Of a DNA stretch of 33,286 bases, positions 578 to 18,455 are shown one piece after another; position 1 is the first letter of the stretch; the number at the start of each line of letters is the position of its first letter. The translations under genes were made by a program, and so were the position numbers. Below the pieces are notes generated by a model. It was given only the letters and a program-made list of their open reading frames with translations, ran no database searches and was not told the DNA's origin. Source of the stretch: Polyangia bacterium (GTDB lineage: Bacteria; Myxococcota_A; Polyangia; Fen-1088); assembly GCA_035546895.1 (NCBI GenBank), contig DASZVW010000179.1, positions 1 to 33,286 on the forward strand. Reading direction: 5' to 3'.

Positions 578-1165
578 ATGTCCAGCATCAAAGAGAAGAT
601 GAAAGCAGTGGCCGGCGCGATCGCCGCCATCGAGAAGCAGTTCGGCAAGGGGGCCATCATGCCGCTCGACGGCGGCGAGATCACCGAGGTGGACGTAATC
701 CCCACCGGCTCCGTCGGCCTCGACGTGGCGCTGGGCGTGGGCGGCCTGCCGCGCGGCCGGGTGATCGAGATCTACGGCCCGGAGTCGTCCGGGAAGACCA
801 CGCTGACGTTGCAGGCGATCGCCCAGGCCCAGCGCGCCGGCGGCGTCTGCGCCTTCATCGACGCCGAGCACGCGCTCGACGTCGGCTACGCGCGCAAGCT
901 CGGCGTCCGCATCGAGGAGCTCCTGGTCTCGCAGCCCGATCACGGCGAGCAGGCGCTGGAGATCGCCGACAAGCTGGTGGCCACCGGCGCCGTCGACCTG
1001 ATCGTCATCGACTCGGTCGCCGCGCTGGTCCCCAAGGCGGAGATCGAGGGGGAGATGGGCGACGCCCACATGGGGCTGCAGGCCCGGCTCATGAGCCAGG
1101 CGCTCCGCAAGCTGACCGCCGCCACCGCCAAGAACAACACCGCGGTCATCTTCATCAACCAGCTG
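578..1165 (+). pseudogene. recA: recA, 5' portion only (codons 1 to ~196), interrupted by the mobile element
   Basis: ATG at 578 follows the RBS AAGGAGAG. The translation is canonical RecA: [11 protein letters not shown], Walker [20 protein letters not shown], Walker [34 protein letters not shown]. Similarity stops after Q195/L196. The read-through tail (1166-1312) is R/P/A-rich and antisense to the recombinase gene. Confidence 0.9.
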
Positions 1166-2741
1166 TGTACAGCTGAGCAACGCCGTGCTTGGCCCGCGAA
1201 GCCAGCAAAAGTCGGGCTTCGACGCGCGCAGGCCCGATTTTCACGGCGTTTTCGTCCTTGGCCAAGATGGCCCGGACGATATCACGGCGATCCTCGGCTG
1301 TCGCAAATCTGAGCTTTTCGCGGAGGTCTTCGACGGCACTCCGGAGCGCCTTAGAGCCCTGCTCTCGGGAGGGACGCTTCTCCGAGGCAGCCTTCGCGAT
1401 GTCGAGCGCCGCGGCCCCTGCAGCGCGATCCTTGGAGAGCCGAACGAGCTCCTTGTCCAAAACGGATTCGGTGATCAGGCCCCGACCGAAGCGCTCGAGA
1501 AGAATCTCTTCCGCGCGCACGAGCTGCTTGAGCCGGGACTCAAGCCGGGGCACGGCCTTCGGATCAGGACCGGCGTCCACCTCCTTCTCACGCTCGGCGA
1601 CCGCGCGTTCGAGATGATCCTCTCTGATGACTGCGGTGAGGACTGCCTCCCAGAGCTTCGCGTCTACAGCATCCGAGCGAAACATCGGCAAGTCGCAAGC
1701 ATGCTCGGAGGGCTTCGGCCGCCGGCGTCGCGAGCAGACATAGTAAAAGTTGCGGCGGGTACCGGCACCGGTCTGCCAAGAGCCAGTCGACGCGCATCCG
1801 ATAGGCGCGCCGCAGGCCCCGCAAGTGGAGATGCCCTGCAGCAGGTACTGATGGGGGTTGCGGAGCTGACCCCTGCGCCCAGCACGAAGGAGCGCTGAGT
1901 CTGCGCGGGCGTAGAGACGGTCATCAATGATTCGGGGTACGGGTACCACCAGCGCTCGAGCTTTGTTTGCGACCCAGCGACCGAGATAGGTACGGGCCCG
2001 GACGATCTGGTGGACCCGTTCACGGATCCAGACGCCGGGCGCCCGCCGACCAGACTTGCTCGGTCGCGCGCGGGGGACGGCGCGCGCCTGGAGATCGCGC
2101 GCGATGCTCTCGCAAGTCTCGCCATCTGCTACTCGGGTGAAGATTTCAACGACGATGGGACCCAGCTCGGGGTCGACGCTCCAGGTGGAGGTTTCTCGGT
2201 TGTAGAGGTAGCCGAACGGCGTTGGGCCGGCCGGCTTCTTGCCCTTCCGGATGGCTTCGTCCTTCCCGCGAAGGATCCGTTCGCGGTGCTTTCGGTTGGC
2301 CTCCGCTGCGAAGAAGGTTCCGAGGCTCGACATCAGGTCGCCGACCGACGACCGCAGGTCCAAGATTTGCCCCGTCGACGACACAGCCAACTGGACACCG
2401 GCGCGCTGGAACGCACCCAGAACCTCGCCACGCTCCTGGAGGTCTTCCGATCGCGTGAGGCGGTCGAGATCGACAACGGTTACGACGTCGAAGGCGCCTT
2501 GAGATGCATCGTGGATAAGGCGAGTAAAGGCCGTGCGCTTGGCGAGAAAGCCTTCCTTAGCGGTGCGACCATCATCGACGTAGGTCTCGGCTGGCTTGAC
2601 GAGCTTCCAGCCGCGCGCGCTGACGAAGGTGGGTAGCGTCGCGAGCTGCGACGCGATCGTATGCCGGTCCCGCTGTGCTACCGATGAAACGCGCGCGTAG
2701 ATGACGGCGCGGAGGCCAGGCCCGGGAGCGTCAACCGCCAT
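1155..2741 (-). CDS. Large serine recombinase (integrase)
   Basis: ATG at 2741 gives [32 protein letters not shown], the resolvase catalytic-Ser motif. This is followed by a recombinase domain, a zinc-ribbon region ([10 protein letters not shown] ... YYVCSRRRR ... HAC) and a coiled-coil C-terminus. The stop TGA is at 1155-1157. In-frame upstream alternatives are ATG 2795 and GTG 2963. Confidence 0.9.
1160..1175. other. Candidate attL crossover core: CAGCTGT-GT-ACAGCTG
   Basis: A perfect 7-bp inverted repeat (1160-1166 and 1169-1175) flanks a non-palindromic GT (1167-1168). It sits exactly where RecA similarity ends and inside the last codons of the serine recombinase gene. A 2-bp central dinucleotide between inverted half-sites is the known architecture of serine recombinase sites. 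Confidence 0.5.
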
Positions 2742-3110
2742 GGCGGCTGGCGATCCGCTTGAGAATGCGCGTGAGCTCTGCAACCGCGTACTCATCGTCC
2801 GTCCTAGCGAAAGAGAGCTGGAGTCTAAGGGCAGATGCTCGCGATGCGCTACCCGTTCCTGGCACAGCCAGCGAGGAAATGACGGCGGAAGTACCCGAGA
2901 GATTCGCGGGGCCGGAGGCGGACACCATGTGTCTGACCACCCTCGGTGGGAGCCGGCGATCACGCCGTCGAGCAGCCGAGGCAGGGAGCCGTGAAGCGGG
3001 CCGCCTCACGGCCCGTCACCTATTGTCGCCGCGAGCGCCCGAGCGGGGGCCCGACGCCGGGGATAGTTCGACGTGGAAAACCGCCAGGTGGTAACCGCTC
3101 CAAACACAGT

Positions 3111-3230: not shown

Positions 3231-3506
3231 ATGGGGGAGAATCGATGTCGGCGATGCAATACCGTCGTGGACTCGCCAGGGTGGCTCTGTTGGCTGTGCG
3301 ATGGGCCGCTGTGCCACGACTGCGGAGAGCGCCACGGCCACTGTGACCACCAAGGTCCGCCACTCGATGATTTGGACCGTCTGTGGGCGACGGCCGACGA
3401 GGTGAAGCGGGCGGAGCTCCTAGCCGCAACGCGAGAGCTCGCCGCGAAGTACGAGGGCCGAACCCCGATGATCCTGCGCCGTCCAATATCAGGTGAGCCC
3501 AACTAG
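3231..3506 (+). CDS. Small Cys/His-rich (zinc-finger-like) hypothetical protein
   Basis: ATG at 3231. The N-terminus CRRCNTVVDSPGWLCWLCDGPLCHDCGERHGHCDH has paired CxxC motifs. The stop lies 2 nt before the next ATG (3509). Confidence 0.5.
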   Translation: MGENRCRRCNTVVDSPGWLCWLCDGPLCHDCGERHGHCDHQGPPLDDLDRLWATADEVKRAELLAATRELAAKYEGRTPMILRRPISGEPN

Positions 3507-3784: not shown

Positions 3785-4129
3785 CTAGTGGCGCCGTGTA
3801 ACTAGAGCCTGCACCACGCCGACGAGGGCAACGAGTACCGCAGTCGCGACCTTCCCCCAGTCAATTCGGCTCCAGAGCGACGCCGGGCGCTTTCGGCGTC
3901 GGTGGGTACCCGGCGGTACCACGAGCGGAACGACCGCGTGGCCTCTCAATCGCTCGAGGATTCGCATCTGCATCCTCGAAATTTGCCGGAGACCCACGCC
4001 CCAAAGAAGAGGCGGATCCAGGATGACTTTGGGGGGGGCTATTCTCGAAGCGAGAAGAGCGGGGTCTATTCTCGCGACAGCCTCAGCTATGGCGCCGTTG
4101 CTGCACTTGCCGACGGAACGCGTAGCCAT
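3785..4129 (-). CDS. Possible small tail-anchored membrane protein (start uncertain; ATG 3973 or 3967 more likely)
   Basis: The ORF ends in a basic stretch plus a hydrophobic helix (RRRKRPASLWSRIDWGKVATAVLVALVGVVQALV). The N-terminal part overlaps the 3' end of the 4087-4965 ORF, and a G8 tract sits at 4031-4038. Confidence 0.25.
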   Translation of the reverse strand: MATRSVGKCSNGAIAEAVARIDPALLASRIAPPKVILDPPLLWGVGLRQISRMQMRILERLRGHAVVPLVVPPGTHRRRKRPASLWSRIDWGKVATAVLVALVGVVQALVTRRH

Positions 4130-4965
4130 ATGAACCGATCCCGAGCGCCTTCTCTGCGGAGCGAGGCGGGTATTTCGGAGAATTCTCGAGCTGTGATGAA
4201 TTGGTTCTGCTCCGATGACTCTCTCCCCCTCCGGTGCACGTCCTCAAGCTGCAGCTCGGTGTAGGGTGGGCCATCGCCAATCCAAAACATGTCGATCACC
4301 TTCGACGCACACTTCATCGCCTCCAGTTTCTTGAGGCCGTGCCTTCGCAGTAGCTCGGTCGCGAAGTAGAGAAAGGCGCCACGTCCGGGCCGCTGCCGAC
4401 TCGCGTATTTCGGATAGTAGGCCCGCGGTAAAAGCATTCGCTGCGGCTTCTGCTGCCCGGGGCCCCACACGGTCCCGCAACTCGTGCACTGACGTGAACC
4501 GCTCTCGAACGGCGGCACTGAAAATCCCTTCGCCGTCGCGGCCTCCATGATCACCTTGTTCTGTCTATCAGCCTCCGGCGCCGGCTCCAGTAGCTCGTGA
4601 TCGCACGTCCTATCGACTGCGTCCCGGAGCCGGTGCAGTCGGGTTGTGAACTGCAACAGCTCGTCCCTAAGCTCGCTCCACGGCCAGAAGGTATGCTCCG
4701 TCGGTTCATTCGCGCCCAGAAACTCGCTGATTTCCTGCAAGTCGAAGATGGCTTTTCGCAGATATTCGTTCAGCGCTTCGGGCACGGGGGTCCAGAGCGT
4801 GGCACTGTCGGCGAGCTCCTCATATGCGCCCTCGTCGAGCCCCGGCAAAGCGTCACGAATCCTGCTCTCGACCTCACATACCTCGATGGCCTCGAACTCC
4901 GGGCGTTTCGGTCGGAAGTATATGGCGGTGGCACCGTCAGCTCTCGTGAACGTACGGTCGTCCAT
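4087..4965 (-). CDS. Hypothetical protein (orphan cargo gene)
   Basis: 292-codon ORF with a balanced, protein-like composition (many D/E/K/F/Y/W), unlike the R/P/A-rich shadow ORFs nearby. It lies in a visibly lower-GC stretch. No family was recognised. Confidence 0.6.
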   Translation of the reverse strand: MDDRTFTRADGATAIYFRPKRPEFEAIEVCEVESRIRDALPGLDEGAYEELADSATLWTPVPEALNEYLRKAIFDLQEISEFLGANEPTEHTFWPWSELRDELLQFTTRLHRLRDAVDRTCDHELLEPAPEADRQNKVIMEAATAKGFSVPPFESGSRQCTSCGTVWGPGQQKPQRMLLPRAYYPKYASRQRPGRGAFLYFATELLRRHGLKKLEAMKCASKVIDMFWIGDGPPYTELQLEDVHRRGRESSEQNQFITAREFSEIPASLRREGARDRFIWLRVPSASAATAP

Positions 4966-5179
4966 GTAGCGCGATCGTACACCGGTCGAGGAACTCCATG
5001 GTGCCCCGGTCGACCCTGGCGAAGGGACATCAAGCTCCCGTTGGCAGTTGACCGGCCTGGGCGACCACCCGATGTTACCCCGCGACTAGACCTCTCGCCG
5101 CGGCCCACGTCGGGCGTAGCAGCGATCGATACCTCCATCCGCGTGCAATCGACTACGATAGGACATCGCGGAGAGCACG

Positions 5180-7711
5180 ATGTCGGGGCGTGACGACTTC
5201 ACAAAACCTGTGGCGCGGAAATTGGCAACCCGCGCCGGCAACCGCTGCTCGAATCCAGATTGCCGTCGAGACACGAGTGGGCCCGCGTCGACAGTAGACG
5301 GGACCATGAATGTAGGCGTAGCTGCGCACATAACCGCCGCGGCCGAGGGTGGTCCGCGCTTCGATCCTGAGCTGAGCCCCACTGACCGCTCGTCTATCTC
5401 GAACGGCATTTGGCTCTGTCGGTGGTGCGGCACGCTGATCGACAGCGACGAGTCGCGATTCACCAAAGCAGTACTGTTGGCGTGGAGAACTTCAGCGGAG
5501 GCGCTCGCGCGCTCCCGCCTCGATACTCCCGCCCGCCCGGAAGGTCCTGACGAGCCACTTCTGCGCTTGCCCGATTCTGATCCCTCGGTGTCCTGGCTCA
5601 CCTTTTCTTCCCGCGCGACCACGTTCGTGGGGCGAGACGACGAGCGGGCTCGGTTGGCGACCTTCTTGAGAGAAGATCGGAAGGTCTCGTGGTGGCTCAT
5701 GACCGGACCTGCCGGTGCGGGCAAAAGTCGGCTCGCGCTGGAGGTCTGCCGTCAAACACAGCCGGAGTGGGCTGCTGGTTTCCTAAGCCGGACCGACGCG
5801 TTTCGGCGTTGGTCCCATTTTCGTCCCGCCCGACCCACGTTGATCGTAGTGGACTACGTCGCAAGCCGAGTCGCCGAGGCAAGTGGTGTGGTTCAAGAAC
5901 TGGTACGCGCAGCTCCGCACCTTCCCCACCCTGTGCGTGTTCTGCTTCTTGAGCGCGAGCAGGGATCATGGTGGCCGAGATTCCTTCGAGAGGATAGCCA
6001 GAGCGAGTGCGCGGAGCTCCTTGAAGCAGAACACGACGAACCGCTGCGTCTCGGGCCCCTCGCGTCGACGGCACTCCGATCGATAGCGGAGGATGTGGCG
6101 CGATTGGAAAGTAGGTCCTGGTCAGAGACATCCGGACAAGCATTCGATTCGCGGATGCGAATCGTGGACCCGCTCGGGCGCCCGCTGTTTGGAATGATCG
6201 CGGCTGCGTACCCCGGGAACGACATGGTCCACGGCATCGCCGATTCGGACGTTCTGAGACTTGTCTTGAAAAAGGAAGCGGCCCGACGAGTACAGATATT
6301 GCCGGACCAGGAACAGCGACAGAGGATCGAACAGCTGATGACCCTCGCCACAATGGTCGGCGGCCTTCTCCCTAGATCTGACGGCTTTGCGTTTCTTTCG
6401 GCGACAGACGTTGGACCGCTGCTTCCCGTGCCGGACCTCATCGAGCCGCGTGTGTACCGCGACGCGGTTGCCGCGACAAATGCGGACCCAGCTCTTGCCG
6501 GGTTGCAACCGGATATCTTGGGAGAGCGCTTCGTCCTCGATCGCTTAACCGCTGGAGACGGCTCTCACTTCGCCGCGCGGAAGCTCTTGGTCGTAGGCTG
6601 GAAGATTCAGCCGGACGACGTTTGTGACTTCGTGGTGCGAACAGCGTCCGATTTCCCGGGCGATCCAGGCCTTGAAGTGCTCTGCGCGTTGCCGACGGAC
6701 TCGCCGCTAGCGCGAAGTCGATGGGGACGCCTGGTGGCTGATCTCATACGCGTGGCCAATCGGAGCACTGACCCGATGACGGGCCGCCTGCTCTCAGCAC
6801 TGCGCGAGCTCGTTCGGAAACATTCAGATGAGGAACACGTTGCGCGAGCGCTCGCGTTGGCCGAGCTGTACCTTGGCAACATATTCCTCTTCGCCGAGGA
6901 GAACTACTCCGAGGCTCAGTCGCGGTTCGAAGCGGCGATCGCTCTCGCTCGTGGCGCTTCTGACATCGTCGCGGCGGCAGTCAATAACCGTGGGATCGTC
7001 TACCACCTCATCGAGAACGAGGATAAGGCGTTTGCCGACTGGAGTGACGTGATTTCGGCTTCGATGATTTCCGATGAAGCGCGCGCGTGTGCGCTGAACA
7101 ACCGCGCAGACGTGTTTGGACGCCGTGGCCTTCATGAGCAATCGATCGCCGATCGTGCCGCGGTGCTTGCTCTGCGTGAGACATCTGCCGATCGCCGCTA
7201 TATCGCCCTGATTAGGCGTAGCAGGTCATACGTTCAGCTCGGTCGAAGCGGCGATGCTCTTGACGACCTGGGAATGATCCTCCGCACCGACGATATTTCG
7301 CCCCAGCAGAAAGCCGAAGCTCATGTTCTTCGGGGGGCGCTGCTAAGGGACCTTGGACACCTTGACGATGCCAGACAGGATTTGGACTCTGTGCTCGCCG
7401 AGGAGGATTTGTTCTATGGAACGTATCCTGAAGCGCTCGTTGAACTCGGCGAACTTGCGCGGCTCACCGGTGATGTTGAACGGGCGCGCGAGTACCTTGA
7501 TGCTGCTTCTGCTTCGGTTGACGCGAGAGGCGATACACTCGCTGAAGCGCTGATAGTAAGGGCGCGCCTTCTGACGGACGAGGGCGACGCTGCGGCTGCC
7601 GAAAGCATATGGCAGCGCGTACGTACCGATCCAGCTGCGACGCCTCGACAGGCATTGATCGCGTCGAATCGGGATGTACCGGCGCGGCTCAGCCACCCGA
7701 TAGGTGTCTAG
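5180..7711 (+). CDS. HNH-like nuclease / STAND P-loop NTPase / TPR three-domain protein (Avs-like antiviral STAND candidate)
   Basis: ATG at 5180 follows GGAGAG. The N-terminus has an HNH-type motif (CSNPDC ... VAAHITAAAEGGPRFD ... SNGIWLCRWCGTLIDSD). Walker A is LMTGPAGAGKSRLALEV (nt ~5702-5728) and Walker B-like is TLIVVDYV. The C-terminal ~300 aa show TPR-like repeats (AELYLGNIFL..YSEAQSRFEAAIAL, NNRGIVY, NNRADVF and others). Confidence 0.85.
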   Translation: MSGRDDFTKPVARKLATRAGNRCSNPDCRRDTSGPASTVDGTMNVGVAAHITAAAEGGPRFDPELSPTDRSSISNGIWLCRWCGTLIDSDESRFTKAVLLAWRTSAEALARSRLDTPARPEGPDEPLLRLPDSDPSVSWLTFSSRATTFVGRDDERARLATFLREDRKVSWWLMTGPAGAGKSRLALEVCRQTQPEWAAGFLSRTDAFRRWSHFRPARPTLIVVDYVASRVAEASGVVQELVRAAPHLPHPVRVLLLEREQGSWWPRFLREDSQSECAELLEAEHDEPLRLGPLASTALRSIAEDVARLESRSWSETSGQAFDSRMRIVDPLGRPLFGMIAAAYPGNDMVHGIADSDVLRLVLKKEAARRVQILPDQEQRQRIEQLMTLATMVGGLLPRSDGFAFLSATDVGPLLPVPDLIEPRVYRDAVAATNADPALAGLQPDILGERFVLDRLTAGDGSHFAARKLLVVGWKIQPDDVCDFVVRTASDFPGDPGLEVLCALPTDSPLARSRWGRLVADLIRVANRSTDPMTGRLLSALRELVRKHSDEEHVARALALAELYLGNIFLFAEENYSEAQSRFEAAIALARGASDIVAAAVNNRGIVYHLIENEDKAFADWSDVISASMISDEARACALNNRADVFGRRGLHEQSIADRAAVLALRETSADRRYIALIRRSRSYVQLGRSGDALDDLGMILRTDDISPQQKAEAHVLRGALLRDLGHLDDARQDLDSVLAEEDLFYGTYPEALVELGELARLTGDVERAREYLDAASASVDARGDTLAEALIVRARLLTDEGDAAAAESIWQRVRTDPAATPRQALIASNRDVPARLSHPIGV

Positions 7712-7712
7712 A

Positions 7713-8750
7713 TCACCCCCTCCCTCGACCATCACACTCACTCACTCGCTTCCCCCAGACCTGCCGTCCCGTGACGGGATGGAAGTTGATCCGCGCGCGA
7801 TCTCCCCGAAGAGCGATAGACCTGGCGTCGTAGGCCTCAGCGGCGGCGCGTTCCTTCGGAAAGATCCCGAGCGCTGTGTTCCGCCCGTTGTGCGCAATCT
7901 GTGCGCGCCAGCCGCCTTGCCGTGAGTCCCACGAGACCCCGATGTAGCGGCTCGACTTGGCCAGCTTTCCCTCCTTCCTCGCTTCGCTCACGATGGCAGC
8001 CGCGTCTGCCGGCGCGGCCCGCTCTCGCGGAAAGTTCAGCACCGGCGCATCACCAAGGTAGTAGCGGGCTGCGCGGTCGTACGCTCGAGCGGCATCCTTC
8101 TCGGTCGCCCAGGTGCCGAGGTGCATGCGGCGTCGGCCTGGGACCCCTATCTGTGCCGTCCAGGGTCGCCAAGAGTCTCGTGCGACGAGGAAGACCCCCC
8201 GGTACCTGCTGGTGAGCGTATCGGAGGCGCGTGAGTCCCTCGCGGCCGTCCGTAGGTCTGCGGGTGAGGCGGGCGCTAGCCGCCGGCGCGGAAAGTTCAG
8301 ATGAGTTCGGTCAGCTCGCAGGAAGACCGCCGCCCGATCGTGCGCCTCTGCCGCCTCCTTTTCACTCCTCCAATGTCCGAGGTGGATTCGGTCATCGCCA
8401 GCGTGGATCTGTGCCCGCCACCACGGGGAGGCAGCGTCAACACCTCGAAAACGGCTTGTCGCTGAGAGCTTCGATAGCTGCCTAGCCTCGTTCTGCAGGG
8501 CGCTCGCGTCCGCGGGTACCAAGCGCCTTCGGGGGAAGTTCCGCGGGGCGTCCGGCCCTCGATAATGTAGGGCAGCGCGGTCGTACGCCTGCGCGGCCTC
8601 AAGCTCCGTGCTCCAGGCACCGAGGGATGCACGCCCAGAACCGGCGAGTCTGATCTGAGCGGTCCAGCTCCGGGCTCGATTCTTAAGGCGATGAACGCCT
8701 AGGAACCTGCTCGCTTTCGGAGCTTCTGACCGGGGCGCACCCGGCGTCAC
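7713..8750 (-). CDS. Protein composed of four tandem AP2/ERF-type DNA-binding domains
   Basis: Four repeats start at residues S14, S99, S181 and S267. Each fits S-R-[FY]-x-G-V ... W-x-A-Q-I ... L-G-x-[WF] ... E-x-A-A-x-A-[YH]-D-x-A ... N-F-P, the bacterial AP2 signature. The stop at 7713-7715 lies 1 nt from the stop of the convergent STAND gene. Confidence 0.85.
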   Translation of the reverse strand: MTPGAPRSEAPKASRFLGVHRLKNRARSWTAQIRLAGSGRASLGAWSTELEAAQAYDRAALHYRGPDAPRNFPRRRLVPADASALQNEARQLSKLSATSRFRGVDAASPWWRAQIHAGDDRIHLGHWRSEKEAAEAHDRAAVFLRADRTHLNFPRRRLAPASPADLRTAARDSRASDTLTSRYRGVFLVARDSWRPWTAQIGVPGRRRMHLGTWATEKDAARAYDRAARYYLGDAPVLNFPRERAAPADAAAIVSEARKEGKLAKSSRYIGVSWDSRQGGWRAQIAHNGRNTALGIFPKERAAAEAYDARSIALRGDRARINFHPVTGRQVWGKRVSECDGRGRG

Positions 8751-8826: not shown

Positions 8827-9375
8827 CTAGGAGTCCTTCGCGGCCGAGAGAAATGCCGCCAGATCCTTCACCGCCTTCATCGCTTCGTTCCATCTCTCCG
8901 TTCGCCCGCCCGACTGCCACCGCGTAGCGACATTCTCAGCGACCTTCTTCACGCTAGAGATCGTGTCAATCCCGGCTTCCATCTTTAGGTCGTGGGTGAT
9001 TACGCTGATAATTCTATCCTCAGCGTCGTTCAAGTAGAACCCAGCCATCCAATAGGAGGAGCGTCGCTCTTGTTCGTAGTTGACGCGGTTGTGTTGAATC
9101 AGTTCGTCGAGTATTCGCTCTCCGTGTTGGACTTGGATCTTGCCGTCGCGATCGGTCTCCGCCGCGATTTCCGCGCTCTGTTGGATCAGCGGAATCGCTC
9201 GCCACAGAGCAAAGCCTGCCCCAACAAGGCGATTCCAGGCGTACCCCCGGGAGCGAAGATTCTTGGACCATGTGTTTTCTGCGCGCTCGCTGAGAGCACG
9301 CAAGTCTACAAGCACGTTTGAAATCTCCGCTCGTTGAACGATGACTCTTCGATCGCTTTCGGGACTGTAGGCCAT
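8827..9375 (-). CDS. Hypothetical protein (orphan, noticeably lower GC)
   Basis: 182-codon ORF with ATG at 9375 and a balanced, helical-looking composition. No family was recognised. Confidence 0.65.
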   Translation of the reverse strand: MAYSPESDRRVIVQRAEISNVLVDLRALSERAENTWSKNLRSRGYAWNRLVGAGFALWRAIPLIQQSAEIAAETDRDGKIQVQHGERILDELIQHNRVNYEQERRSSYWMAGFYLNDAEDRIISVITHDLKMEAGIDTISSVKKVAENVATRWQSGGRTERWNEAMKAVKDLAAFLSAAKDS

Positions 9376-9474: not shown

Positions 9475-9855
9475 ATGAGTACTGTCGAGACCCTGGTTGA
9501 AGAGTTCACGAGCCGCCTCGGAGCTCTCTTGGAGAGCCAGACCCTTGAGCGCGCCCGGCTTGCGGTTGCTAGCGCTTTCGGTGGTGGGCGACTCGGACGT
9601 CCTCCGAAGCTATCGGGAGCCGCTTTCGGCGGGACATCCAGAAAGAGACCCCCGAGACAACTGTGTCCCGTTCCGGGCTGTAAGAACCCGGCCGCGCCGA
9701 TCTTTGGGATGGTGTGCGCCGAGCACAAGGACGTCGCGAAGGCGAAGATCAAGAAGTACCGAGAGGCCCGCCGCGCCGCGAAGCTAGGACCAAGCAAATC
9801 GAAGTCGGCACGGGCCGGGGCGAAGAAGAAGAACCGTTCGATCCCACGCAGCTAA
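9475..9855 (+). CDS. Small basic protein with a CCCH knuckle and a Lys/Arg-rich tail (possible DNA-binding protein)
   Basis: ATG at 9475. The motif is QLCPVPGCKNPAAPIFGMVCAEHK, followed by KAKIKKYREARRAAKLGPSKSKSARAGAKKKNRS. Confidence 0.6.
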   Translation: MSTVETLVEEFTSRLGALLESQTLERARLAVASAFGGGRLGRPPKLSGAAFGGTSRKRPPRQLCPVPGCKNPAAPIFGMVCAEHKDVAKAKIKKYREARRAAKLGPSKSKSARAGAKKKNRSIPRS

Positions 9856-9870: not shown

Positions 9871-11925
9871 TCACGATGGTCTTCCGGCGTTGCGGCGCCG
9901 TCGCCGATGCCTGGTGTGCTGCTGGTCGGCGTCCTGAGTGAAGGAACAGGTCGGGTAGTTCGAGCAGGCCCAGAAGGCACCGCTCTTCCCGGGGCGCTTT
10001 CGGAGCGAGCCGCTACAGCCTGGCGAGCGGCAGGGTCGAATCTCGACGGCAGGGAGATTCAGCGGCCCCGCGCTCTTGGCCCGGGCGACGAGCTCGCCGA
10101 GCTGCTTTCGGACGGCGTGAAGGAATCCGTCGAGCGGAGCCTGGCCGTCCTGGACCTTTCGAAGTGTCGACTCCCAGAGCGCGGTCATGTCCGGCTGCGT
10201 GGCGACGGACGGAAGAGATCGGATGAGCGCCCGCGCCGTCGGTGTCGAGTAAATCTGGCGCTTGTTCTCTTCGACGTACTTGCGATCGAACAGGCGCTGG
10301 ATGATCGCTGCTTGTGTCGCTGGTGTTCCTATCCCGTCGGTCTCGCGGAGAAGAGCCTTGATCCGAGGGTCCGAAACGTACCGAGCGATTCCGGTCATCG
10401 CCTGGACGAGGCTAGCGGCCGTGAATCTACGCGGTGGCTTCGTCTTCTTGGCAACGATGCGCGTCTGGGCGACGCGCAGGACCTGCCCACGTTGGAGGGG
10501 CGGAATGGGAGAGTGGGGGTCGACATCGTTCTCTGCGGCTGGAGCGTCGGGATCATTTCCGCCGCCCTGCTCATCATCCGTGAGAGCCTCATAAAGGCGG
10601 CGCCACCCCGGAGCAATCGGCTGACGGCCGGTGGCGATGAGGCGTTCTCCAGCGACGATGAGTTCTGCCTCGAGCTGGTGGTACTCGAAGGGTGGACAAA
10701 ATTGCGCGAGGTAGCGTCGAGCGATGAGGTCGTAGACAGCGAGCTCGTCTTTCGACAGCCCTCCCGACTTCTCGGGTCGCGGAGTCGGAATGATCGCGTG
10801 GTGAGCCGTGACTTTCGCGTCGCTCCACGCCTTCGAACGAATCGAAACGTCCGCCGCGGCGGCCGCGGCAGCGATCTGAGGGTCGACGACGGCGATCGCC
10901 CGGACGACATCGGTCGCCTGGGCGAGGTGGCCTTCCGGCAAATGGGAGCAATCCGAGCGGGGGTAAGTGACGAGACGGTGCGTTTCGTAAAGCGCCTGGC
11001 AGACGTCGAGGACGGTCTTGGGATTGAGCCCCAGCTTGCGACCTGCGTCGATCTGGAGGTCCGACAGCGAGTACGGCAGCGGGGCGGCCTCGGACTTCTT
11101 CTCGCGGGTCGCCTTCACCACCGTAGCCGGTTGGCCCGCGATCTTGCGGTCGATGGCGCCGGCAACGGCGCTGCTCACGAGCCGCCTCTCATCGTCGAGG
11201 GCCGAGTCGGCCGCCGGGCCCGGCCGCCAGCTGGCAGCGAAGGGATGGGCGGCGCCGGCGACGTCGGCGACGATCGAGAAGTAAGGCTTCGCGACGAAGT
11301 TCTCGATTTCGAGGTCGCGCCGGACGATCAGACCGAGGAGGGGCGTCTGCACGCGGCCGACGGAGAGGACGCCGTCCTGATAGCCGGCTTGTCGGCCGAG
11401 GACGGTGTAGAGCCTGGTCATGTTGATGCCGTACATCCAGTCGGCGCGCTGGCGGCCGAGCGCGGCGTCGTAGAGGGAGCGGAAGTTGGAGTTGGGCTGG
11501 AGGGCGCCGAGGGCCTTGCGTACCGCACTCGGATTGAGGTCGCTGATGAGGATGCGCTCCACCCGCCCGCGAAAGCCGAGGTATTGGAGGACCTCGTCGA
11601 CGAGCAGTTGGCCCTCGCGGTCCGGGTCGCCGGCGTTGACCACGACGTCGACGCGAGGGAGGAGGGCCTTGATGGTCTTGAGCAAGTCGGGCGTCTTGAC
11701 GGCGAGCTTCCATTCGGTCGGCGTGATCGGAAGGTGCTCGAGCTGCCAGCTCTTGAAAGCAGGGTCGTAGGCGTCTGCCTCCGCGAGCTCGAGGATGTGG
11801 CCTGCGCACCAAGCGACCAGGTCGGCTCCGCATTCGATGTAGTTGTCGCGACGCTGTGGCTGCGGAAGGACGTCAGCGATCGCGCGGGCGAGGGACGGCT
11901 TCTCGGCGACGAAGAGACGGCGCAT
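9871..11925 (-). CDS. topB: DNA topoisomerase III
   Basis: ATG at 11925 follows GGAG. It has a Toprim N-terminus (MRRLFVAEKPSLARAIA ... NAGDPDREGQLLVDEV), an active-site Tyr region (HRLVTYPRSDC) and a C-terminal zinc ribbon (CRSPGCSGSL ... FWACSNYPTCSF). Confidence 0.95.
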   Translation of the reverse strand: MRRLFVAEKPSLARAIADVLPQPQRRDNYIECGADLVAWCAGHILELAEADAYDPAFKSWQLEHLPITPTEWKLAVKTPDLLKTIKALLPRVDVVVNAGDPDREGQLLVDEVLQYLGFRGRVERILISDLNPSAVRKALGALQPNSNFRSLYDAALGRQRADWMYGINMTRLYTVLGRQAGYQDGVLSVGRVQTPLLGLIVRRDLEIENFVAKPYFSIVADVAGAAHPFAASWRPGPAADSALDDERRLVSSAVAGAIDRKIAGQPATVVKATREKKSEAAPLPYSLSDLQIDAGRKLGLNPKTVLDVCQALYETHRLVTYPRSDCSHLPEGHLAQATDVVRAIAVVDPQIAAAAAAADVSIRSKAWSDAKVTAHHAIIPTPRPEKSGGLSKDELAVYDLIARRYLAQFCPPFEYHQLEAELIVAGERLIATGRQPIAPGWRRLYEALTDDEQGGGNDPDAPAAENDVDPHSPIPPLQRGQVLRVAQTRIVAKKTKPPRRFTAASLVQAMTGIARYVSDPRIKALLRETDGIGTPATQAAIIQRLFDRKYVEENKRQIYSTPTARALIRSLPSVATQPDMTALWESTLRKVQDGQAPLDGFLHAVRKQLGELVARAKSAGPLNLPAVEIRPCRSPGCSGSLRKRPGKSGAFWACSNYPTCSFTQDADQQHTRHRRRRRNAGRPS

Positions 11926-12027
11926 TGGTCAGGACTCCAGTGGTTGGTCAATCAGGTTGTCGAAGAGTTCGAATGCGCGTTCGATGACGGACGGTGGGAG
12001 GCCTTGGGTTGTTGGAACCGCGCCGGA

Positions 12028-12777
12028 TCAGTTGAGGCGGATGGCGCCCTCGGCCAGGGCCCGGCGACTGAAGGTCGGATGCGACGCGACTGGGAAGGAG
12101 GTACCGTCGAACACCCGGACGCTCTCGGAGTGGACGCGCGACAACAGACGGACTTGGCCGTCGCTCCAGTTCTCCAGGTGGTGATAGAGAAGTCCCCTGA
12201 CCTCGGCGGTGGCGCCTACGCAGAGGGCCGGCTCGAGCGCGTCGCCCCAGAAGACGACGTCATGGGTTGCCGGGAAAGGAGAGCGGGTCGAAACGGTGAC
12301 CCGGGGGAGGCCGTCGTCGTTCTCGATCGCGATGACCTTCCCGACCAGGTGGATCTGGTTTTGGGCATAGGTTTCGAGCTTGGGAGGAGGGCAGTCGTGC
12401 GGCCGCTCGAGCTCGGGAAGCGCCAGGACGCGCGCGAATATCTGGCGCGCCGTGGGCGCGGGGTGGATCACTGTCGCGCTGCGAACGGAAATCTTGGCGA
12501 TGCGCTGGTAGAGGTCTCGTCGCGCGCGACTGTTCACCAGGAGGGGACCGTCGACGCGCACGGCGGCGCCGTCGCGAATGGTCTTCGCGAGCTGCGATGC
12601 CGTCTCGCCGACAGCGATGCAGCGCTGTCTATCAGCGATGTCACGGCCGGGATTGAACTCGGCGGTGGTGTTCAAGTAGAACTTGAGCACAGGCCGACCG
12701 ACTCGGTTGAGTTCGAGTTCGAGTATCTCGTCGACGATTCCGGCGATGGTGGCGCAGTTGGCGTGTACGGGCTTCAT
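12028..12777 (-). CDS. Hypothetical protein with two SSB-like OB-fold halves
   Basis: ATG at 12777 follows GAGGAG. Both halves follow the SSB-type pattern (NCATIAGIVDE...VLKFYLNT...CIAVGETASQLAKTIRDGAAVRVDGPLLVNS and QIHLVGKVIAIEND...VVFWGDALEPALCVGATAEVRGLLYHH). There is no acidic C-terminal tip. Confidence 0.6.
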   Translation of the reverse strand: MKPVHANCATIAGIVDEILELELNRVGRPVLKFYLNTTAEFNPGRDIADRQRCIAVGETASQLAKTIRDGAAVRVDGPLLVNSRARRDLYQRIAKISVRSATVIHPAPTARQIFARVLALPELERPHDCPPPKLETYAQNQIHLVGKVIAIENDDGLPRVTVSTRSPFPATHDVVFWGDALEPALCVGATAEVRGLLYHHLENWSDGQVRLLSRVHSESVRVFDGTSFPVASHPTFSRRALAEGAIRLN

Positions 12778-12861
12778 GACTTGATGCTCCTCGGATGGGT
12801 GTGAAGGGTGGGAATGGGCAAGAAGAGAGCCGGGCGCGGTCAGCCCGCGCCCGGCGGTGTG

Positions 12862-13626
12862 TCACATGCCGCGTTCGACGCTCTTGCCGCGCTGGCGGCC
12901 GCGCGCGCGAGCTGGCGGGGGCGGCGTGGCCGGCTCGCGCTCGGGTGCCTTGGCCTGCTCCGACGCCTGCTGCCGCTCCTGGGTGCGCTCGAGGACCTGG
13001 AACTGCCGGCAGTCGATGCCGGACAGGCGGCGCTCGACGCCCTCGGGGCCTGGGATGCTCTTGTGGCGGACGGAGCCGTTCACGGAGATCGTGTCGCCGG
13101 CGCTGATCTCCTTGAGCGCGAGCTCGCCGGTCTTGCCCCACATGGTGACGTTGTGCCAGTCGTCGCGCTCCTTGCCGTTCTGGACGGTCGTCGTCGCGAC
13201 GCTGACGGCAGTGAGGGTCGCGCCGCTCTGGAGGGTCTTCTGCTCGACGCTCCGAACGACACCGATGAGCTGGGCCTCGTTCATCGAGGTGAAGTTCTCG
13301 ATGGCGGGGGCAGCCGAGTCGATGTGCAGCTCCAGGACGCGGTGTTTGGCCCCGTCCTTCTCGTAGCTGTTGACCCGGAGCGATCCGGTGAGGCTGACGC
13401 CCTTGCCCTTGTCGAAGTCGGCGGCGACCTTCTCGGCCATATCGCCCCAGGCGACTGCGCGAGTCCATTGGGTGTCCTCGCGGATGTTTCCGCCCCGGTC
13501 GGTGTAGCGCTCCGAGGTGGCAATGTTGAGACGGGCGAATTTCACGCCCTCACTGGTCTCGCCGAGCTCCGGTTTCTGGCCGAGGCGGCCGACGAGGGTT
13601 GCGGTGCTGATGTGTTCACGGTTCAT
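12862..13626 (-). CDS. ssb: Single-stranded DNA-binding protein with two tandem OB folds
   Basis: ATG at 13626 follows AAGGAGA. OB1 is ATLVGRLGQKPELGET..GVKFARLNIATSERY...TQWTRAVAWGDMAEKVAADFDKGKGVSLTGSLRVNSYEKDG. OB2 is QLIGVVRSVEQK...DDWHNVTMWGKTGELALKEISAGDTISVNGSVRHK. The tail is basic and Pro-rich rather than the usual acidic tip. Confidence 0.85.
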   Translation of the reverse strand: MNREHISTATLVGRLGQKPELGETSEGVKFARLNIATSERYTDRGGNIREDTQWTRAVAWGDMAEKVAADFDKGKGVSLTGSLRVNSYEKDGAKHRVLELHIDSAAPAIENFTSMNEAQLIGVVRSVEQKTLQSGATLTAVSVATTTVQNGKERDDWHNVTMWGKTGELALKEISAGDTISVNGSVRHKSIPGPEGVERRLSGIDCRQFQVLERTQERQQASEQAKAPEREPATPPPPARARGRQRGKSVERGM

Positions 13627-13684
13627 GGTGGTCTCCTTGCTGGTGGTGGGGAACAGGTGCGTGGCAAAAGCGGGGGCGCTACGG

Positions 13685-14107
13685 TCAGCGGCGGGCGAGC
13701 AGAGGCGCGATGTCGACGCCGAGGCAGAGGAGCGCGTCGTTGACGTCCTCGTGCGAGTAACCGTCGTCGATCAGAGCGACGAGCTCCGGCGCGAGCCGCA
13801 TGACGAGGCCCCAGGTGTTCAGGACCGGGGTGACGCCGCGGTAGCGGGCGAGTGCCCTCAGCTTCTTGGAGATCTTTTCCGCGTCCGCGATGGAGTAAGC
13901 CGGCTGGGCGCGGGCCTCGGCCAGAGTGACGGTAGTACCGAGCGACCCCTCGTCGATCGCTCGGCCGAGAATCCGCGCCAACAGCGCCCCCGCGAGCCGG
14001 ACGGAGTCGATGCAGTCCGACAGGTGGTGAACTTCAGGAAGGCGCTCCGAGAGCTTGCCGACATGCTCGTCGAGCTCCTTTGAAAACACGGAGTCGGCGG
14101 ACTTCAT
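13685..14107 (-). CDS. Hypothetical protein, translationally coupled to trbI
   Basis: ATG at 14107 overlaps the trbI stop as ATGA, and AAGGAGG lies upstream. No family was recognised. Confidence 0.6.
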   Translation of the reverse strand: MKSADSVFSKELDEHVGKLSERLPEVHHLSDCIDSVRLAGALLARILGRAIDEGSLGTTVTLAEARAQPAYSIADAEKISKKLRALARYRGVTPVLNTWGLVMRLAPELVALIDDGYSHEDVNDALLCLGVDIAPLLARR

Positions 14108-15549: not shown

Positions 15550-15562
15550 GGTGGGCTCCTCG

Positions 15563-17268: not shown

Positions 17269-17274
17269 CACGCC

Positions 17275-17318
17275 CGAGTTGTCGAAAGGAGCCCCGAAAA
17301 AGGGACCTAAAATCGGAC
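17275..17318 (+). repeat. Conserved 44-nt intergenic motif, copy B
   Basis: CGAGTTGTCGAAAGGAGCCCCGAAAAAGGGACCTAAAATCGGAC. It fills nearly the whole gap between the trbL stop (17319) and the trbF start (17268), with 6 nt between the motif and the ATG. Confidence 0.7.
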
Positions 17319-18449: not shown

Positions 18450-18455
18450 CGCACC

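What the first reader, a model, noticed from the sequence alone, without database searches (positions are those of the whole stretch)
5180..7711. HNH-STAND NTPase-TPR protein: Avs-like antiviral candidate with a possibly degenerate nuclease motif
The layout (N-terminal nuclease-like effector, central P-loop STAND NTPase, C-terminal TPR sensor array) matches antiviral STAND (Avs/AVAST-type) proteins. The gene sits in a lower-GC cargo patch of a mobile element. In the HNH region, the position after the second Cys pair that is usually His (LCxxCH..ID) is Gly here (LCRWCGTLID). The effector may therefore be inactive, use different chemistry, or need a partner.
Basis: partly seen in the sequence, partly recalled or inferred. 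Interest (0 to 1): 0.7.

Follow-up and report, generated by a model that had tools for sequence, protein, structure and literature searches.

The report
HNH-STAND-TPR defence gene on an ICE
This is a real 843-residue gene for a one-protein, Avs-like immune sensor (Cap5-type HNH nuclease head, STAND ATPase switch, TPR sensor) carried as cargo on a conjugative element; the missing catalytic histidine is real but is shared by its whole clade, so it is an ordinary though untested member of a known kind.

Summary
The ORF 5180..7711 (+, 843 aa) is real. More than 60 full-length homologues share 40-69% identity with it.

**Domain layout (all three parts confirmed)**
- Residues 1-115 are a Cap5/SPARHA-type HNH domain (PADLOC 1e-15; Foldseek TM 0.69 to activated PsCap5).
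- Residues ~146-262 are a P-loop STAND core with GPAGAGKS and an invariant Walker B Asp225. The Pfam nSTAND_NTPase5 hit is below the curated cutoff.
- Residues ~531-830 are TPRs. The whole body matches SAMD9 and a STAND-TPR crystal structure.

**The Gly observation**
- Gly84 sits exactly where PsCap5 has His91, a ligand of the catalytic Mg2+.
- It is not a private defect. The position is Ala, Gly or Ser, and never His, in all homologues examined.
- His50, Asn75, Asp88 and the four zinc cysteines stay (near-)invariant.
- I therefore read it as a variant, probably active, nuclease site rather than a decayed one. This is untested.

**Evidence for defence**
- The same NTPase-TPR body carries SMEK or kinase heads, and remoter NTPase relatives carry Cap4, SIR2 or trypsin-like heads.
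- No neighbouring gene is conserved.
- Homologues recur as ICE or defence-island cargo.

**Placement**
- No Avs model scored among its PADLOC hits.
- Verdict: new member of a known kind, of moderate interest.

The parts
5180..7711 (+). Whole gene: 843-aa HNH-STAND NTPase-TPR protein. It is monocistronic: the upstream gene is divergent and the downstream gene is convergent.
   Evidence: ORF list. Full-length homologues at 40-69% identity. AF2 model with pLDDT 87.9 and pTM 0.76. None of five flanking ORFs (3231..3506, 4087..4965, 7713..8750, 8827..9375, 9475..9855) has a relative in eight related loci, L001-L008.
5180..5524 (+). N-terminal Cap5/SPARHA-type HNH (His-Me finger) domain, residues 1-115. 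Helix 9-18, strand 46-50, strand 76-80, helix 81-89, helix 96-115.
   Evidence: PADLOC: PDC-M68A 2e-23, CBASS endonuclease effector 1e-15, SAVED_HNH 3e-15. PDB by sequence: 9om4 5e-8 (single sequence), 1.6e-16 (profile). Foldseek: 8fmf_A (activated PsCap5) E 9e-6, TM 0.69, rmsd 2.8.
5327..5329 (+). His50, the predicted general base at the end of the first beta strand (aligns with PsCap5 His56).
   Evidence: Invariant in 121 N-domain sequences and in 65/65 full-length HNH-type homologues. Alignment to PsCap5. Role in Cap5 from PMC12141522.
5402..5404 (+). Asn75, the 'N' of the H-N-H motif.
   Evidence: Invariant. Aligns with PsCap5 Asn82.
5417..5449 (+). Helix motif CRWCGTLIDSD (residues 80-90). 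Cys80/Cys83, with Cys23 (5246..5248) and Cys28 (5261..5263), are the predicted zinc ligands. Gly84 (5429..5431) replaces the Mg2+-ligand His91 of PsCap5. Asp88 (5441..5443) aligns with Mg2+-ligand Asp95.
   Evidence: Coordinates. Alignment. Column counts: position 84 is Ala 43 / Gly 13 / Ser 12 and never His, while Cys83 is 64 Cys + 1 His. Among 115 motif-bearing N-domain relatives the pair is CA 92, CG 12, CS 7, CV 1, HG 1, HA 1, DA 1.
5615..5965 (+). P-loop NTPase core, residues ~146-262. Walker A GPAGAGKS (176-183; 5705..5728). Walker B TLIVVDYV (220-227; 5837..5860) with invariant Asp225. Conserved VRVLLLERE (252-260).
   Evidence: Pfam AAA_16 1e-5 and nSTAND_NTPase5 1e-4, both below the curated cutoffs. 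46/50 and 44/50 relatives hit these models. Invariant G179 G181 K182 S183 D225 R253 R259.
5966..6769 (+). Helical arm between the NTPase and the TPRs, residues ~263-530. By analogy with other STANDs it holds the helical/winged-helix modules; the boundaries are not resolved here.
   Evidence: AF2 secondary structure. Full-length Foldseek alignments to SAMD9 (825 columns) and STAND-TPR 6mfv (734 columns).
6770..7669 (+). C-terminal TPR array, residues ~531-830: the predicted sensor.
   Evidence: Pfam TPR_12 7e-11 and TPR_2 2e-8, both above cutoff. Paired helices throughout with pLDDT >90. Foldseek TPR matches.
7055..7324 (+). Exceptionally conserved TPR stretch, residues 626-715, rich in Arg/Asp/Asn. 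It is a candidate ligand-binding or autoinhibition surface.
   Evidence: 26 of 90 positions are >=95% conserved, the same count as in the NTPase core. Many are invariant even in SMEK- and kinase-headed relatives.

Best explanation
A stand-alone, Avs-like STAND immune sensor carried as cargo on an integrative conjugative element.

Proposed mechanism:
1. At rest the protein is an autoinhibited, probably nucleotide-bound, monomer.
2. The C-terminal TPR array binds an invader-derived ligand, most likely a conserved phage or MGE protein.
3. Binding releases the NTPase switch (Walker A Lys182, Walker B Asp225) and allows NTP-dependent oligomerisation.
4. Oligomerisation brings the N-terminal Cap5/SPARHA-type HNH domains together into dimers or tetramers.
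5. The assembled HNH domains cut DNA non-specifically, aborting the infection.

The HNH site is a clade-wide variant. The general base His50, Asn75, the Cys4 zinc site and the metal ligand Asp88 are kept. The second metal ligand (His91 of PsCap5) is replaced by Gly/Ala/Ser. The catalytic metal would then be held by Asp88, water molecules and the scissile phosphate, as in His-Me nucleases that use a single protein ligand.

What is shown: the fold, the motifs, their conservation, the head swapping and the genomic setting.

What is inferred: the ligand, the oligomerisation, the nuclease activity and any protection against phage.
For: Architecture: HNH, P-loop core and TPRs. The AF2 model has pLDDT 87.9, and its best PDB fold matches are SAMD9 (1e-7) and the STAND-TPR protein 6mfv (2e-7).

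Active site under selection: His50, Asn75, Cys23, Cys28 and Cys80 are invariant, and Cys83, Asp88 and Asp90 are >=90% conserved, across 121 N-domains whose mean column identity is only 28%.

Effector logic:
- The same NTPase-TPR body (40-47% identity) carries SMEK_N or Ser/Thr kinase heads. These match pAgo-associated REase and PD-T4-6 defence models.
- NTPase relatives at 30-38% identity carry Cap4 nuclease, SIR2_2, trypsin-like, alpha/beta-hydrolase and DUF4062 heads.

Single-gene system: the neighbours are divergent and convergent, and none of five flanking ORFs tested has a relative in eight related loci.

Setting:
- The gene is ICE cargo in the window.
- L009 lies beside an integrase, a T4SS coupling protein and PIN, Mrr-helicase and RM genes. 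L010 lies between an integrase and TrbI. L011 lies between integrases with ArdC and Mrr.
- L006 lies beside nSTAND3, AAA_15, DruA and DUF87 genes. L003 lies beside a TIR_2 gene and an IS110.

Precedent for activation by assembly: Cap5 and SPARHA HNH domains are switched on by dimer-to-tetramer assembly (PMC12141522; PMC12738770). Avs proteins tetramerise on target binding (PMC13581612). The N-domain model superposes best on the activated PsCap5 tetramer entries, with its best-matching chains scoring TM 0.67-0.70.
Against: - There are no experimental data for any member of the family.
- The Mg2+-ligand His is missing. In AcaSPARHA the double substitution N71A/H80A abolished activity, but whether H80 is the equivalent His was not checked, so activity of the His-less site is an assumption.
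- Pfam nSTAND_NTPase5 (22.5 bits against a cutoff of 34) and AAA_16 (26.4 against 32.6) are below their curated thresholds.
- No Avs model appears among the PADLOC matches.
- Two of the eight contexts examined (counting the window; L004 and L012) look housekeeping. The sample is too small for a statistical defence association.
- None of the 10 other ORFs tested in the window matches a PADLOC model.
- Walker B has a single acidic residue (VVDY), so hydrolysis may be slow or absent.
Confidence: 0.6

Rival explanations
1. Pseudo-nuclease head. The HNH-like domain has lost catalysis throughout the clade and acts as a zinc-stabilised DNA-binding or oligomerisation module. The protein would then work by clamping or occluding DNA, or by recruiting an unlinked host nuclease, once the STAND switch fires.
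For: The residue aligned with the Mg2+-ligand His91 of PsCap5 is Gly/Ala/Ser in every homologue seen. In AcaSPARHA the double substitution N71A/H80A abolished activity, though whether H80 is the equivalent His was not checked. The Glu that bridges HNH dimers in Cap5/SPARHA (PsCap5 Glu53) is Val47 here.
Against: The general base His50, Asn75 and the remaining metal ligand Asp88 are invariant or nearly so in a family with only 28% mean column identity. That is hard to explain without catalysis. No conserved partner gene was found. On the same or a related body the head is exchanged for enzymatic effectors such as SMEK/REase, kinase, Cap4 and SIR2. From general knowledge, other His-Me nucleases (I-PpoI, Serratia nuclease) use a single protein metal ligand.
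Confidence: 0.2
2. Not immunity. The protein is a STAND-type regulator or maintenance factor of the conjugative element itself, for example one that controls excision or transfer, or acts against competing elements or recipient DNA during conjugation.
For: The window and three of the seven homologue contexts examined (L009-L011) place the gene beside integrases and/or T4SS genes. In L010 it occupies a similar slot between an integrase and TrbI. Many bacterial STAND-TPR proteins are transcription regulators (general knowledge; PMC13581612).
Against: The protein has no HTH or other regulator output domain; its head is a nuclease fold. Other homologues lie in chromosomal housekeeping or defence-island contexts with no T4SS nearby. 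Its GC3 of 0.65, against 0.80-0.92 for most of the conjugation and replication genes, marks it as cargo rather than core. The heads swapped onto the same or a related body are typical immune effectors.
Confidence: 0.1
3. Decaying or mis-called gene. The long ORF is a chance open frame in GC-rich DNA, or a pseudogene whose nuclease is broken.
For: The window's own gene call covers only the last 495 residues (P0013). In 65% GC DNA many long spurious ORFs overlap the gene.
Against: The frame is open for 843 codons, and homologues from Acidobacteriota and Deltaproteobacteria MAGs and other metagenome assemblies cover it end to end. The AF2 model is confident over all three domains. Every catalytic and nucleotide-binding motif except position 84 is intact, and position 84 follows the clade consensus.
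Confidence: 0.02

Closest known systems
Avs (antiviral STAND) proteins: Avs1-5 (Gao et al.) and the wider set of >=90 defence-associated STAND sensor families, including Avs7-21 (PMC13581612)
   Same: Single polypeptide with an N-terminal effector, a central STAND P-loop NTPase and a C-terminal TPR-like sensor. The effector is modular and swaps on a conserved body. The genes are carried on mobile elements and in defence islands. Activation is expected to be by ligand-induced oligomerisation.
   Different: No Avs model appears among this protein's PADLOC matches or among the 25 models most often matched by its relatives. By Pfam the NTPase is closest to nSTAND_NTPase5/AAA_16, and only weakly. 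The TPR arm is short (~300 aa, under the 400-aa sensor cutoff used in that survey). Its trigger is unknown. I could not check whether the clade is among the 589 STAND clades of that study, because no supplement is held.
CBASS effector Cap5 (HNH-SAVED), e.g. PsCap5 8FM1/8FMF/9DIF
   Same: Same HNH subfamily. It has the N-terminal dimerisation helix, the AHI general-base His, GPR, N..LC..C zinc knuckle and IDxD helix. Foldseek TM is 0.69 with rmsd 2.8 A over about 115 residues.
   Different: It has no SAVED domain and no CD-NTase neighbour. The catalytic Mg2+ ligand His91 is Gly84, and the bridging Glu53 is Val47. Control comes from a STAND-TPR body rather than a cyclic nucleotide.
SPARHA HNH-APAZ effector of short prokaryotic Argonautes (9OM4; PMC12738770)
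   Same: It is the best solved-structure sequence match for the head (5e-8 single sequence, 1.6e-16 profile). The nuclease is switched on by assembly. The alternative SMEK head found on this STAND body also matches PADLOC 'Aga_REase' models, which I read as pAgo-associated nucleases.
   Different: It has no APAZ domain and no Argonaute partner. SPARHA keeps the HH pair (LCHEHHELVD) and is Mn2+-dependent. Here the pair is CG.
SAMD9/SAMD9L and the STAND-TPR crystal structure 6MFV
   Same: They are the best whole-chain structural matches to the NTPase plus TPR body (E 1e-7 and 2e-7, with 825 and 734 aligned columns).
   Different: TM scores are low (0.28-0.41) and identity is 10-11%. The effectors differ (AlbA_2/SIR2 against HNH). 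This is a resemblance at superfamily level only.
PADLOC candidate PDC-M68A and the small stand-alone His-less HNH proteins (about 180-260 aa; E. coli plasmid WP_021520503.1; phage P2-EC46 Z-region ORF2)
   Same: This is the closest profile for the head (2e-23). They share the His-less motif C/H-[AGS]-x-L-I-D-x-D. The P2-EC46 protein sits next to a Lit-like gene in the P2 Z-region, annotated as lysogenic-conversion genes.
   Different: These proteins lack the STAND-TPR body. Only profile positions 4-113 of 253 are matched. None has a tested function as far as the held literature shows.

Membership tests
HNH / His-Me finger nuclease, Cap5-SPARHA subfamily | beta-beta-alpha-metal fold | tested here: met
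   AF2 N-domain model with pLDDT 87.6: strands 46-50 and 76-80, helix 81-89. Foldseek top hits are PsCap5 8fmf/8fmh/9dih (E ~1e-5, TM 0.67-0.70), followed by ScoMcrA and EcoKMcrA.
HNH / His-Me finger nuclease, Cap5-SPARHA subfamily | General-base His at the end of the first strand, and the structural Asn | tested here: met
   His50 and Asn75 are invariant. They align with PsCap5 His56 and Asn82.
HNH / His-Me finger nuclease, Cap5-SPARHA subfamily | Structural zinc site (Cys/His ligands) | tested here: met
   Cys23, Cys28, Cys80 and Cys83 are conserved. Position 83 is His in a few relatives and in SPARHA and several Cap5 proteins. The Zn2+ ligands are described in PMC12738770. Metal binding itself was not testable.
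HNH / His-Me finger nuclease, Cap5-SPARHA subfamily | Helix His that coordinates the catalytic metal (last H of H-N-H; PsCap5 His91) | tested here: not met
   It is Gly84 here and Ala/Gly/Ser in all homologues, never His. The second ligand Asp95 is kept as Asp88.
HNH / His-Me finger nuclease, Cap5-SPARHA subfamily | Metal-dependent nuclease activity | not testable with these tools
   Needs biochemistry.
STAND NTPase | Walker A GxxxxGK[ST] and Walker B hhhhD | tested here: met
   GPAGAGKS at 176-183 and LIVVD at 221-225. G179, G181, K182, S183 and D225 are invariant in 78 sequences.
STAND NTPase | Match to a curated STAND profile above threshold (Pfam nSTAND_NTPase5 PF25199, AAA_16) | tested here: inconclusive
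   22.5 bits against a cutoff of 34, and 26.4 against 32.6. 44/50 and 46/50 relatives hit at E<=1e-3, best 7e-9. A remoter relative, P0363, reaches 33.9 bits.
STAND NTPase | NTPase followed by a helical arm and a repeat sensor in one chain | tested here: met
   AF2 model. Foldseek matches to SAMD9 9zjr (1e-7) and STAND-TPR 6mfv (2e-7) over 734-825 columns.
Avs (antiviral STAND) sensu Gao et al. | Sequence membership in a named Avs family | tested here: not met
   No Avs model appears among the query's 14 PADLOC v2 matches (E<=1) or among the 25 models most often matched by 50 relatives. Avs6-21 models were not available.
Avs (antiviral STAND) sensu Gao et al. | Defence effector domain at the N-terminus, exchanged among relatives | tested here: met
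   HNH, SMEK_N and Ser/Thr kinase heads occur on the same body. Cap4, SIR2_2, trypsin-like, hydrolase and DUF4062 heads occur on related NTPases.
Avs (antiviral STAND) sensu Gao et al. | Enrichment next to known defence systems | tested here: inconclusive
   Counting the window, 8 contexts were examined. L003, L006, L009 and L011 have defence-type neighbours (TIR_2/DACNV; nSTAND3, AAA_15, DruA; PIN, Mrr-helicase, RM; Mrr/ArdC). The window and L009-L011 lie on integrative or conjugative elements. L004 and L012 look housekeeping. No statistics are possible.
Avs (antiviral STAND) sensu Gao et al. | Protection against phage; activation by a phage protein | not testable with these tools
   Needs plaque assays and a trigger screen.
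CBASS Cap5 | C-terminal SAVED domain and a CD-NTase in the operon | tested here: not met
   PADLOC Cap5 and SAVED_HNH models match only residues 4-116. The body is P-loop plus TPR. No neighbour matches a PADLOC model.
SPARHA | APAZ domain and an adjacent short pAgo | tested here: not met
   9om4 aligns only over residues 15-126. No Argonaute-like gene was found among the neighbours.

The most novel reading that the evidence does not exclude
The His-less Cap5-like HNH head may be a distinct, deliberately incomplete nuclease module. It occurs here, in hundreds of small stand-alone proteins, in an E. coli plasmid protein and in phage P2-EC46 Z-region ORF2. A monomer would lack one catalytic-metal ligand. 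It would become competent only when oligomerisation completes the metal site in trans, or when a different metal or chemistry is used. That would be a built-in safety catch for suicide effectors. In parallel, the invariant Arg/Asp/Asn-rich TPR patch (residues 626-715), shared by HNH-, SMEK- and kinase-headed relatives, would recognise one conserved invader or host-derived ligand not yet assigned to any Avs family.
Probability: 0.15. Interest if true: 0.6.

Novelty: new member of a known kind. Interest (0 to 1): 0.35.

Why it matters
If it is confirmed, four things follow.
- An uncharacterised clade joins the catalogue of bacterial NLR-like sensors. Its NTPase is nSTAND5-like, and about 356 clusters at 50% identity match the full protein at E<=1e-30. 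The family is found mainly in uncultured soil- and sediment-type lineages and is carried on ICEs.
- A large branch of Cap5/SPARHA-type HNH effectors would be shown to work without the canonical metal-binding His. That bears on how HNH effectors are recognised and scored as 'active' in defence-system annotation.
- The strongly conserved TPR patch gives a concrete handle for finding the trigger.
- In practice, automated annotation currently labels these proteins only 'TPR repeat protein' or 'hypothetical'. In this window the gene call misses the nuclease and the P-loop altogether.

Tried and rejected
1. Membership of a named Avs family. No Avs model appears among the query's PADLOC matches or among the 25 models most often matched by 50 relatives, so it is not filed as a named Avs.
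2. Cap5/CBASS or SPARHA membership. Only the head matches; there is no SAVED, CD-NTase, APAZ or pAgo.
3. A conserved partner gene. tblastn of five flanking ORFs against eight related loci found nothing, and the gene lists of seven homologue contexts share no neighbour.
4. P2-EC46 ORF2 as a His-less true Cap5. Rejected, because only its first ~130 residues match the HNH models and its neighbour is Lit-like, not a CD-NTase.
5. Literature for PDC-M68, 8YSQ and P2-EC46. No usable paper was found. The eLife 2020 conflict-systems paper does not mention nSTAND or SMEK in its main text. No supplement is held for the 2026 STAND survey.
6. The genome-contig scan with the single protein returned only two loci, so taxonomic breadth rests mostly on metagenome hits.
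7. The promoter and terminator scan of 4800..8000 gave nothing above shuffle expectation.
Asp90 is not a novelty, since PsCap5 has the equivalent Asp97.
Full report
**1. The observation**

The ORF 5180..7711 on the + strand is open for 843 codons. It starts at an ATG with a GGAG 9-12 nt upstream.

In 65% GC DNA a long ORF alone proves little. However, a search of 5.8 billion proteins returned more than 60 full-length relatives of about 830-850 aa. They cover 95-100% of the query at 40-69% identity. An exhaustive HMMER scan of 1.84 billion cluster representatives found 356 matches at E<=1e-30. The gene is real and its boundaries are right.

The window's own gene call (P0013) covers only the last 495 residues, starting at Met349. 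It therefore misses the nuclease head and the P-loop.

'AHI' is Ala49-His50-Ile51. 'GKS' is the end of GPAGAGKS at residues 176-183.

**2. The N-terminal domain**

PADLOC models for the CBASS Cap5 endonuclease effector (1e-15), SAVED_HNH (3e-15) and the candidate PDC-M68A (2e-23) all match residues ~4-115.

The closest solved sequences are the SPARHA HNH effector 9om4 (5e-8 with the single sequence, 1.6e-16 with a family profile) and four Cap5 structures.

An AlphaFold2 model of residues 1-135, built on 121 sequences, has pLDDT 87.6. It shows helix 9-18, strands 46-50 and 76-80, and helix 81-89, which is a beta-beta-alpha finger. Foldseek places it on PsCap5 in its activated tetramer entries (8fmf_A, E 9e-6, TM 0.69, rmsd 2.8 A over 117 columns). 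ScoMcrA and EcoKMcrA follow.

**3. The 'missing His'**

In PsCap5, His56 is the general base, and the catalytic Mg2+ is held by His91 and Asp95 on helix alpha4 (PMC12141522). In the related SPARHA head, Cys/His residues hold a structural Zn2+ (PMC12738770).

The profile alignment reads PsCap5 ...GEVAH56I...N82LMLLC87PGC90H91DKID95RD97. The query reads ...GVAAH50I...N75GIWLC80RWC83G84TLID88SD90. This gives the following mapping:

| Query residue | PsCap5 residue | Role |
|---|---|---|
| His50 | His56 | general base |
| Asn75 | Asn82 | H-N-H Asn |
| Cys23, Cys28, Cys80, Cys83 | includes Cys87, Cys90 | zinc site |
| Asp88 | Asp95 | Mg2+ ligand |
| Gly84 | His91 | Mg2+ ligand (lost here) |

It is not an individual defect, however. 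In the full-length alignment the column for position 84 reads Ala 43, Gly 13, Ser 12 and never His, while His50, Asn75 and Asp88 are each 65/65 in the HNH-headed homologues.

A separate search with the head alone gave 845 hits. Among 115 motif-bearing sequences in the best 120, the two residues after C-x-x are CA 92, CG 12, CS 7, CV 1, HG 1, HA 1 and DA 1. In that alignment the mean column identity is 28%. F7, R18, C23, C28, T32, G46, H50, R60, R70, N75, L79, C80 and W102 are nevertheless invariant, and C83, D88 and D90 are >=90% conserved.

The His-less motif also occurs elsewhere:
- a 262-aa E. coli plasmid protein (CRSHGALIDSD);
- a protein of more than 1,470 aa on Rhizobium etli p42d, annotated 'HNH endonuclease' (CSDHAHQIDHD);
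- ORF2 of the phage P2-EC46 Z-region (CVNHSVEIDRD), next to a Lit-like gene;
- the Cap5-like PDB entry 8ysq (CKTHGDHID).

A site that keeps its general base, its Asn, its zinc knuckle and one of its two metal ligands under such strong constraint is more likely a working variant than a relic. From general knowledge, several His-Me nucleases (I-PpoI, Serratia nuclease) hold the metal with a single side chain plus water molecules. Activity is inferred, not shown.

**4. The body**

Pfam gives AAA_16 (residues 148-220, 26.4 bits) and nSTAND_NTPase5 (164-261, 22.5 bits), both below their curated cutoffs. TPR_12 and TPR_2 are above cutoff at residues 560-780. Across 50 relatives, 46 hit AAA_16 and 44 hit nSTAND_NTPase5, with a best E-value of 7e-9.

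In a 78-sequence alignment, G179, G181, K182, S183 (Walker A), D225-Y226 (Walker B), R253 and R259 are invariant.

The full-length AF2 model is confident (pLDDT 87.9, pTM 0.76). Its best PDB matches are human SAMD9 (9.7e-8, 825 columns) and the archaeal STAND-TPR protein 6mfv (1.9e-7, 734 columns), followed by TPR proteins. The second refutation test is thus also passed.

A profile search of PDB sequences found no Avs3/4/5/7 chain. No Avs model appears among the query's PADLOC matches or among the 25 models most often matched by its relatives. The protein works like an Avs but cannot be filed in a named Avs family.

One stretch of the TPR arm, residues 626-715, is as conserved as the NTPase core: 26 of 90 positions are >=95% conserved. 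Residues E633, N640, N641, R642, D658, R659, R672, R673 and D696 are invariant even in relatives with other heads. I take this as the likely ligand or autoinhibition surface.

**5. Evidence that it is an immune module**

Head swapping:
- The same NTPase-TPR body, at 40-47% identity over ~84% of the query, carries an SMEK_N head or a Ser/Thr kinase head in place of the HNH. Those heads match PADLOC 'Aga_REase' (which I read as pAgo-associated) and PD-T4-6 models.
- NTPase relatives at 30-38% identity carry Cap4 dsDNA endonuclease, SIR2_2, trypsin-like peptidase, alpha/beta hydrolase or DUF4062 heads.
- This exchange of known defence effectors on one switch is the hallmark used to call STAND clades defence-associated (PMC13581612).

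Single-gene system:
- In the window the upstream gene is divergent and the downstream AP2-repeat gene is convergent.
- None of five flanking ORFs has a relative near homologues in eight related loci.

Genomic contexts:
- Here the gene lies between a large serine recombinase and a topoisomerase III, SSB and T4SS block.
- L009: beside a tyrosine integrase, a T4SS coupling protein, and PIN, Mrr-helicase and Eco29kI RM genes.
- L010: between an integrase and TrbI/CagX/VirB8/TrbL/VirB4.
- L011: between integrases, with ArdC and Mrr.
- L006: beside nSTAND3, AAA_15, DruA and DUF87 genes.
- L003: beside a TIR_2 gene, an IS110 and a DACNV gene.
- L004 and L012 look chromosomal and housekeeping.

The gene's GC3 is 0.65. 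Most of the conjugation and replication genes of the element have GC3 of 0.80-0.92. This supports the 'cargo patch' remark.

**6. Mechanism proposed**

The chain of inference is as follows.
1. TPR binding of an invader-derived ligand releases the nucleotide switch.
2. NTP-dependent oligomerisation clusters the heads.
3. Clustered HNH heads form the composite double active site seen in Cap5 tetramers and proposed for SPARHA filaments.
4. Non-specific DNA cleavage aborts the infection.

The fold, the motifs, the conservation, the modularity and the context are shown. Every dynamic step is an inference from Avs, Cap5 and SPARHA precedents.

Points against:
- There are no experiments on any member.
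- One metal ligand is missing.
- The Cap5 bridging Glu53 is Val47 here.
- Walker B has a single acidic residue.

**7. Rivals**

- (a) A pseudo-nuclease head that only binds DNA or mediates assembly. It is compatible with the lost His but poorly explains the invariant His50, Asn75 and Asp88 and the lack of a partner gene.
- (b) A regulator or maintenance factor of the ICE. It is suggested by the recurrent ICE location, but there is no regulator output domain. Homologues also occur outside ICEs, and the composition says cargo.
- (c) A spurious or decaying ORF. This is refuted.

**8. Novelty and score**

Tripartite STAND sensors with swappable effectors are well known. A 2026 survey counts 589 STAND clades, of which 198 are defence-associated, with at least 90 sensor families. 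An HNH head of the Cap5 type on such a body is unsurprising.

What is new is modest. The family is untested and poorly annotated: sources call it 'TPR repeat protein' or 'hypothetical'. The documentation that a large Cap5-like HNH branch lacks the canonical metal-binding His is also new.

I rate it a new member of a known kind, with interest 0.35. The most novel reading still open is that the incomplete metal site is a safety catch completed only on assembly, coupled to a conserved and as yet unknown trigger. I give that reading about 15%.

Noticed in passing
window 578..2963: The recA ORF (578..1312) matches the Pfam RecA profile only up to position 188 of 262. It then runs into the 3' end of a large serine recombinase gene (1155..2963, minus strand). 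The conjugative element therefore appears to be integrated inside recA.
   Followed up: partly
window 9871..24704: ICE backbone: topoisomerase III (9871..11925), three SSB paralogues (12028..12777, 12862..13626, 24294..24704), TrbI (14104..15549), CagX/VirB9 (15563..17197), TrbL/VirB6 (17319..18449), VirB4/TrbE (21114..23576) and TrbC/VirB2 pilin (23857..24198). All are on the minus strand.
   Followed up: partly
window 6224..7711: The window's own gene call for this locus (P0013, 495 aa) starts at Met349. Automated annotation therefore loses the HNH head and the P-loop and leaves only a 'TPR protein'.
   Followed up: yes
window 7055..7324 (residues 626-715): This TPR stretch is as conserved as the NTPase core (26/90 positions >=95%). 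Its Arg/Asp/Asn residues are invariant even in SMEK- and kinase-headed relatives. That contrasts with the less conserved TPR stretches on either side of it (2 positions >=95% in each).
   Followed up: partly
window 7713..8750 (minus strand): A 345-aa protein with repeated AP2 DNA-binding domains (Pfam AP2 1.8e-17, two scored stretches; the sequence suggests more repeats). It converges on the target gene, and the two stop codons are separated by a single base.
   Followed up: no
L010 8001..18379; L009; L011: Homologues P0043, P0023 and P0065 also lie beside integrases and/or T4SS genes. In L010 the gene occupies a similar slot, between an integrase and TrbI, as a recurrent ICE cargo gene.
   Followed up: partly
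L015 488..1594 (phage P2-EC46 Z-region ORF2); L013 5001..5789 (E. coli plasmid WP_021520503.1); L014 3941.. (R. etli p42d WP_011053289.1): The same His-less Cap5-like HNH head is fused to other, unidentified C-terminal parts. In P2-EC46 it lies next to a Lit-like gene in the Z-region, where both ORFs are annotated as putative lysogenic-conversion proteins.
   Followed up: partly
P0121-P0240; L007, L008: Hundreds of small (about 105-218 aa) proteins consist of little more than this head. Many of the shortest come from very short contigs or carry no contig record, so they may be fragments. Two examined contexts showed no shared partner; one has a TIR gene next door.
   Followed up: partly
window 4087..4965 (-), 8827..9375 (-), 18630..20066 (+), 26546..27577 (+), 30157..32322 (+): Several sizeable ORFs of the element have no Pfam or PADLOC match. 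ORF 8827..9375 has the lowest GC of the ORFs measured (56%).
   Followed up: no
window 32397..33248 (minus strand): A second, unrelated TPR protein (282 aa, TPR_16/TPR_19) lies at the right edge of the window.
   Followed up: no
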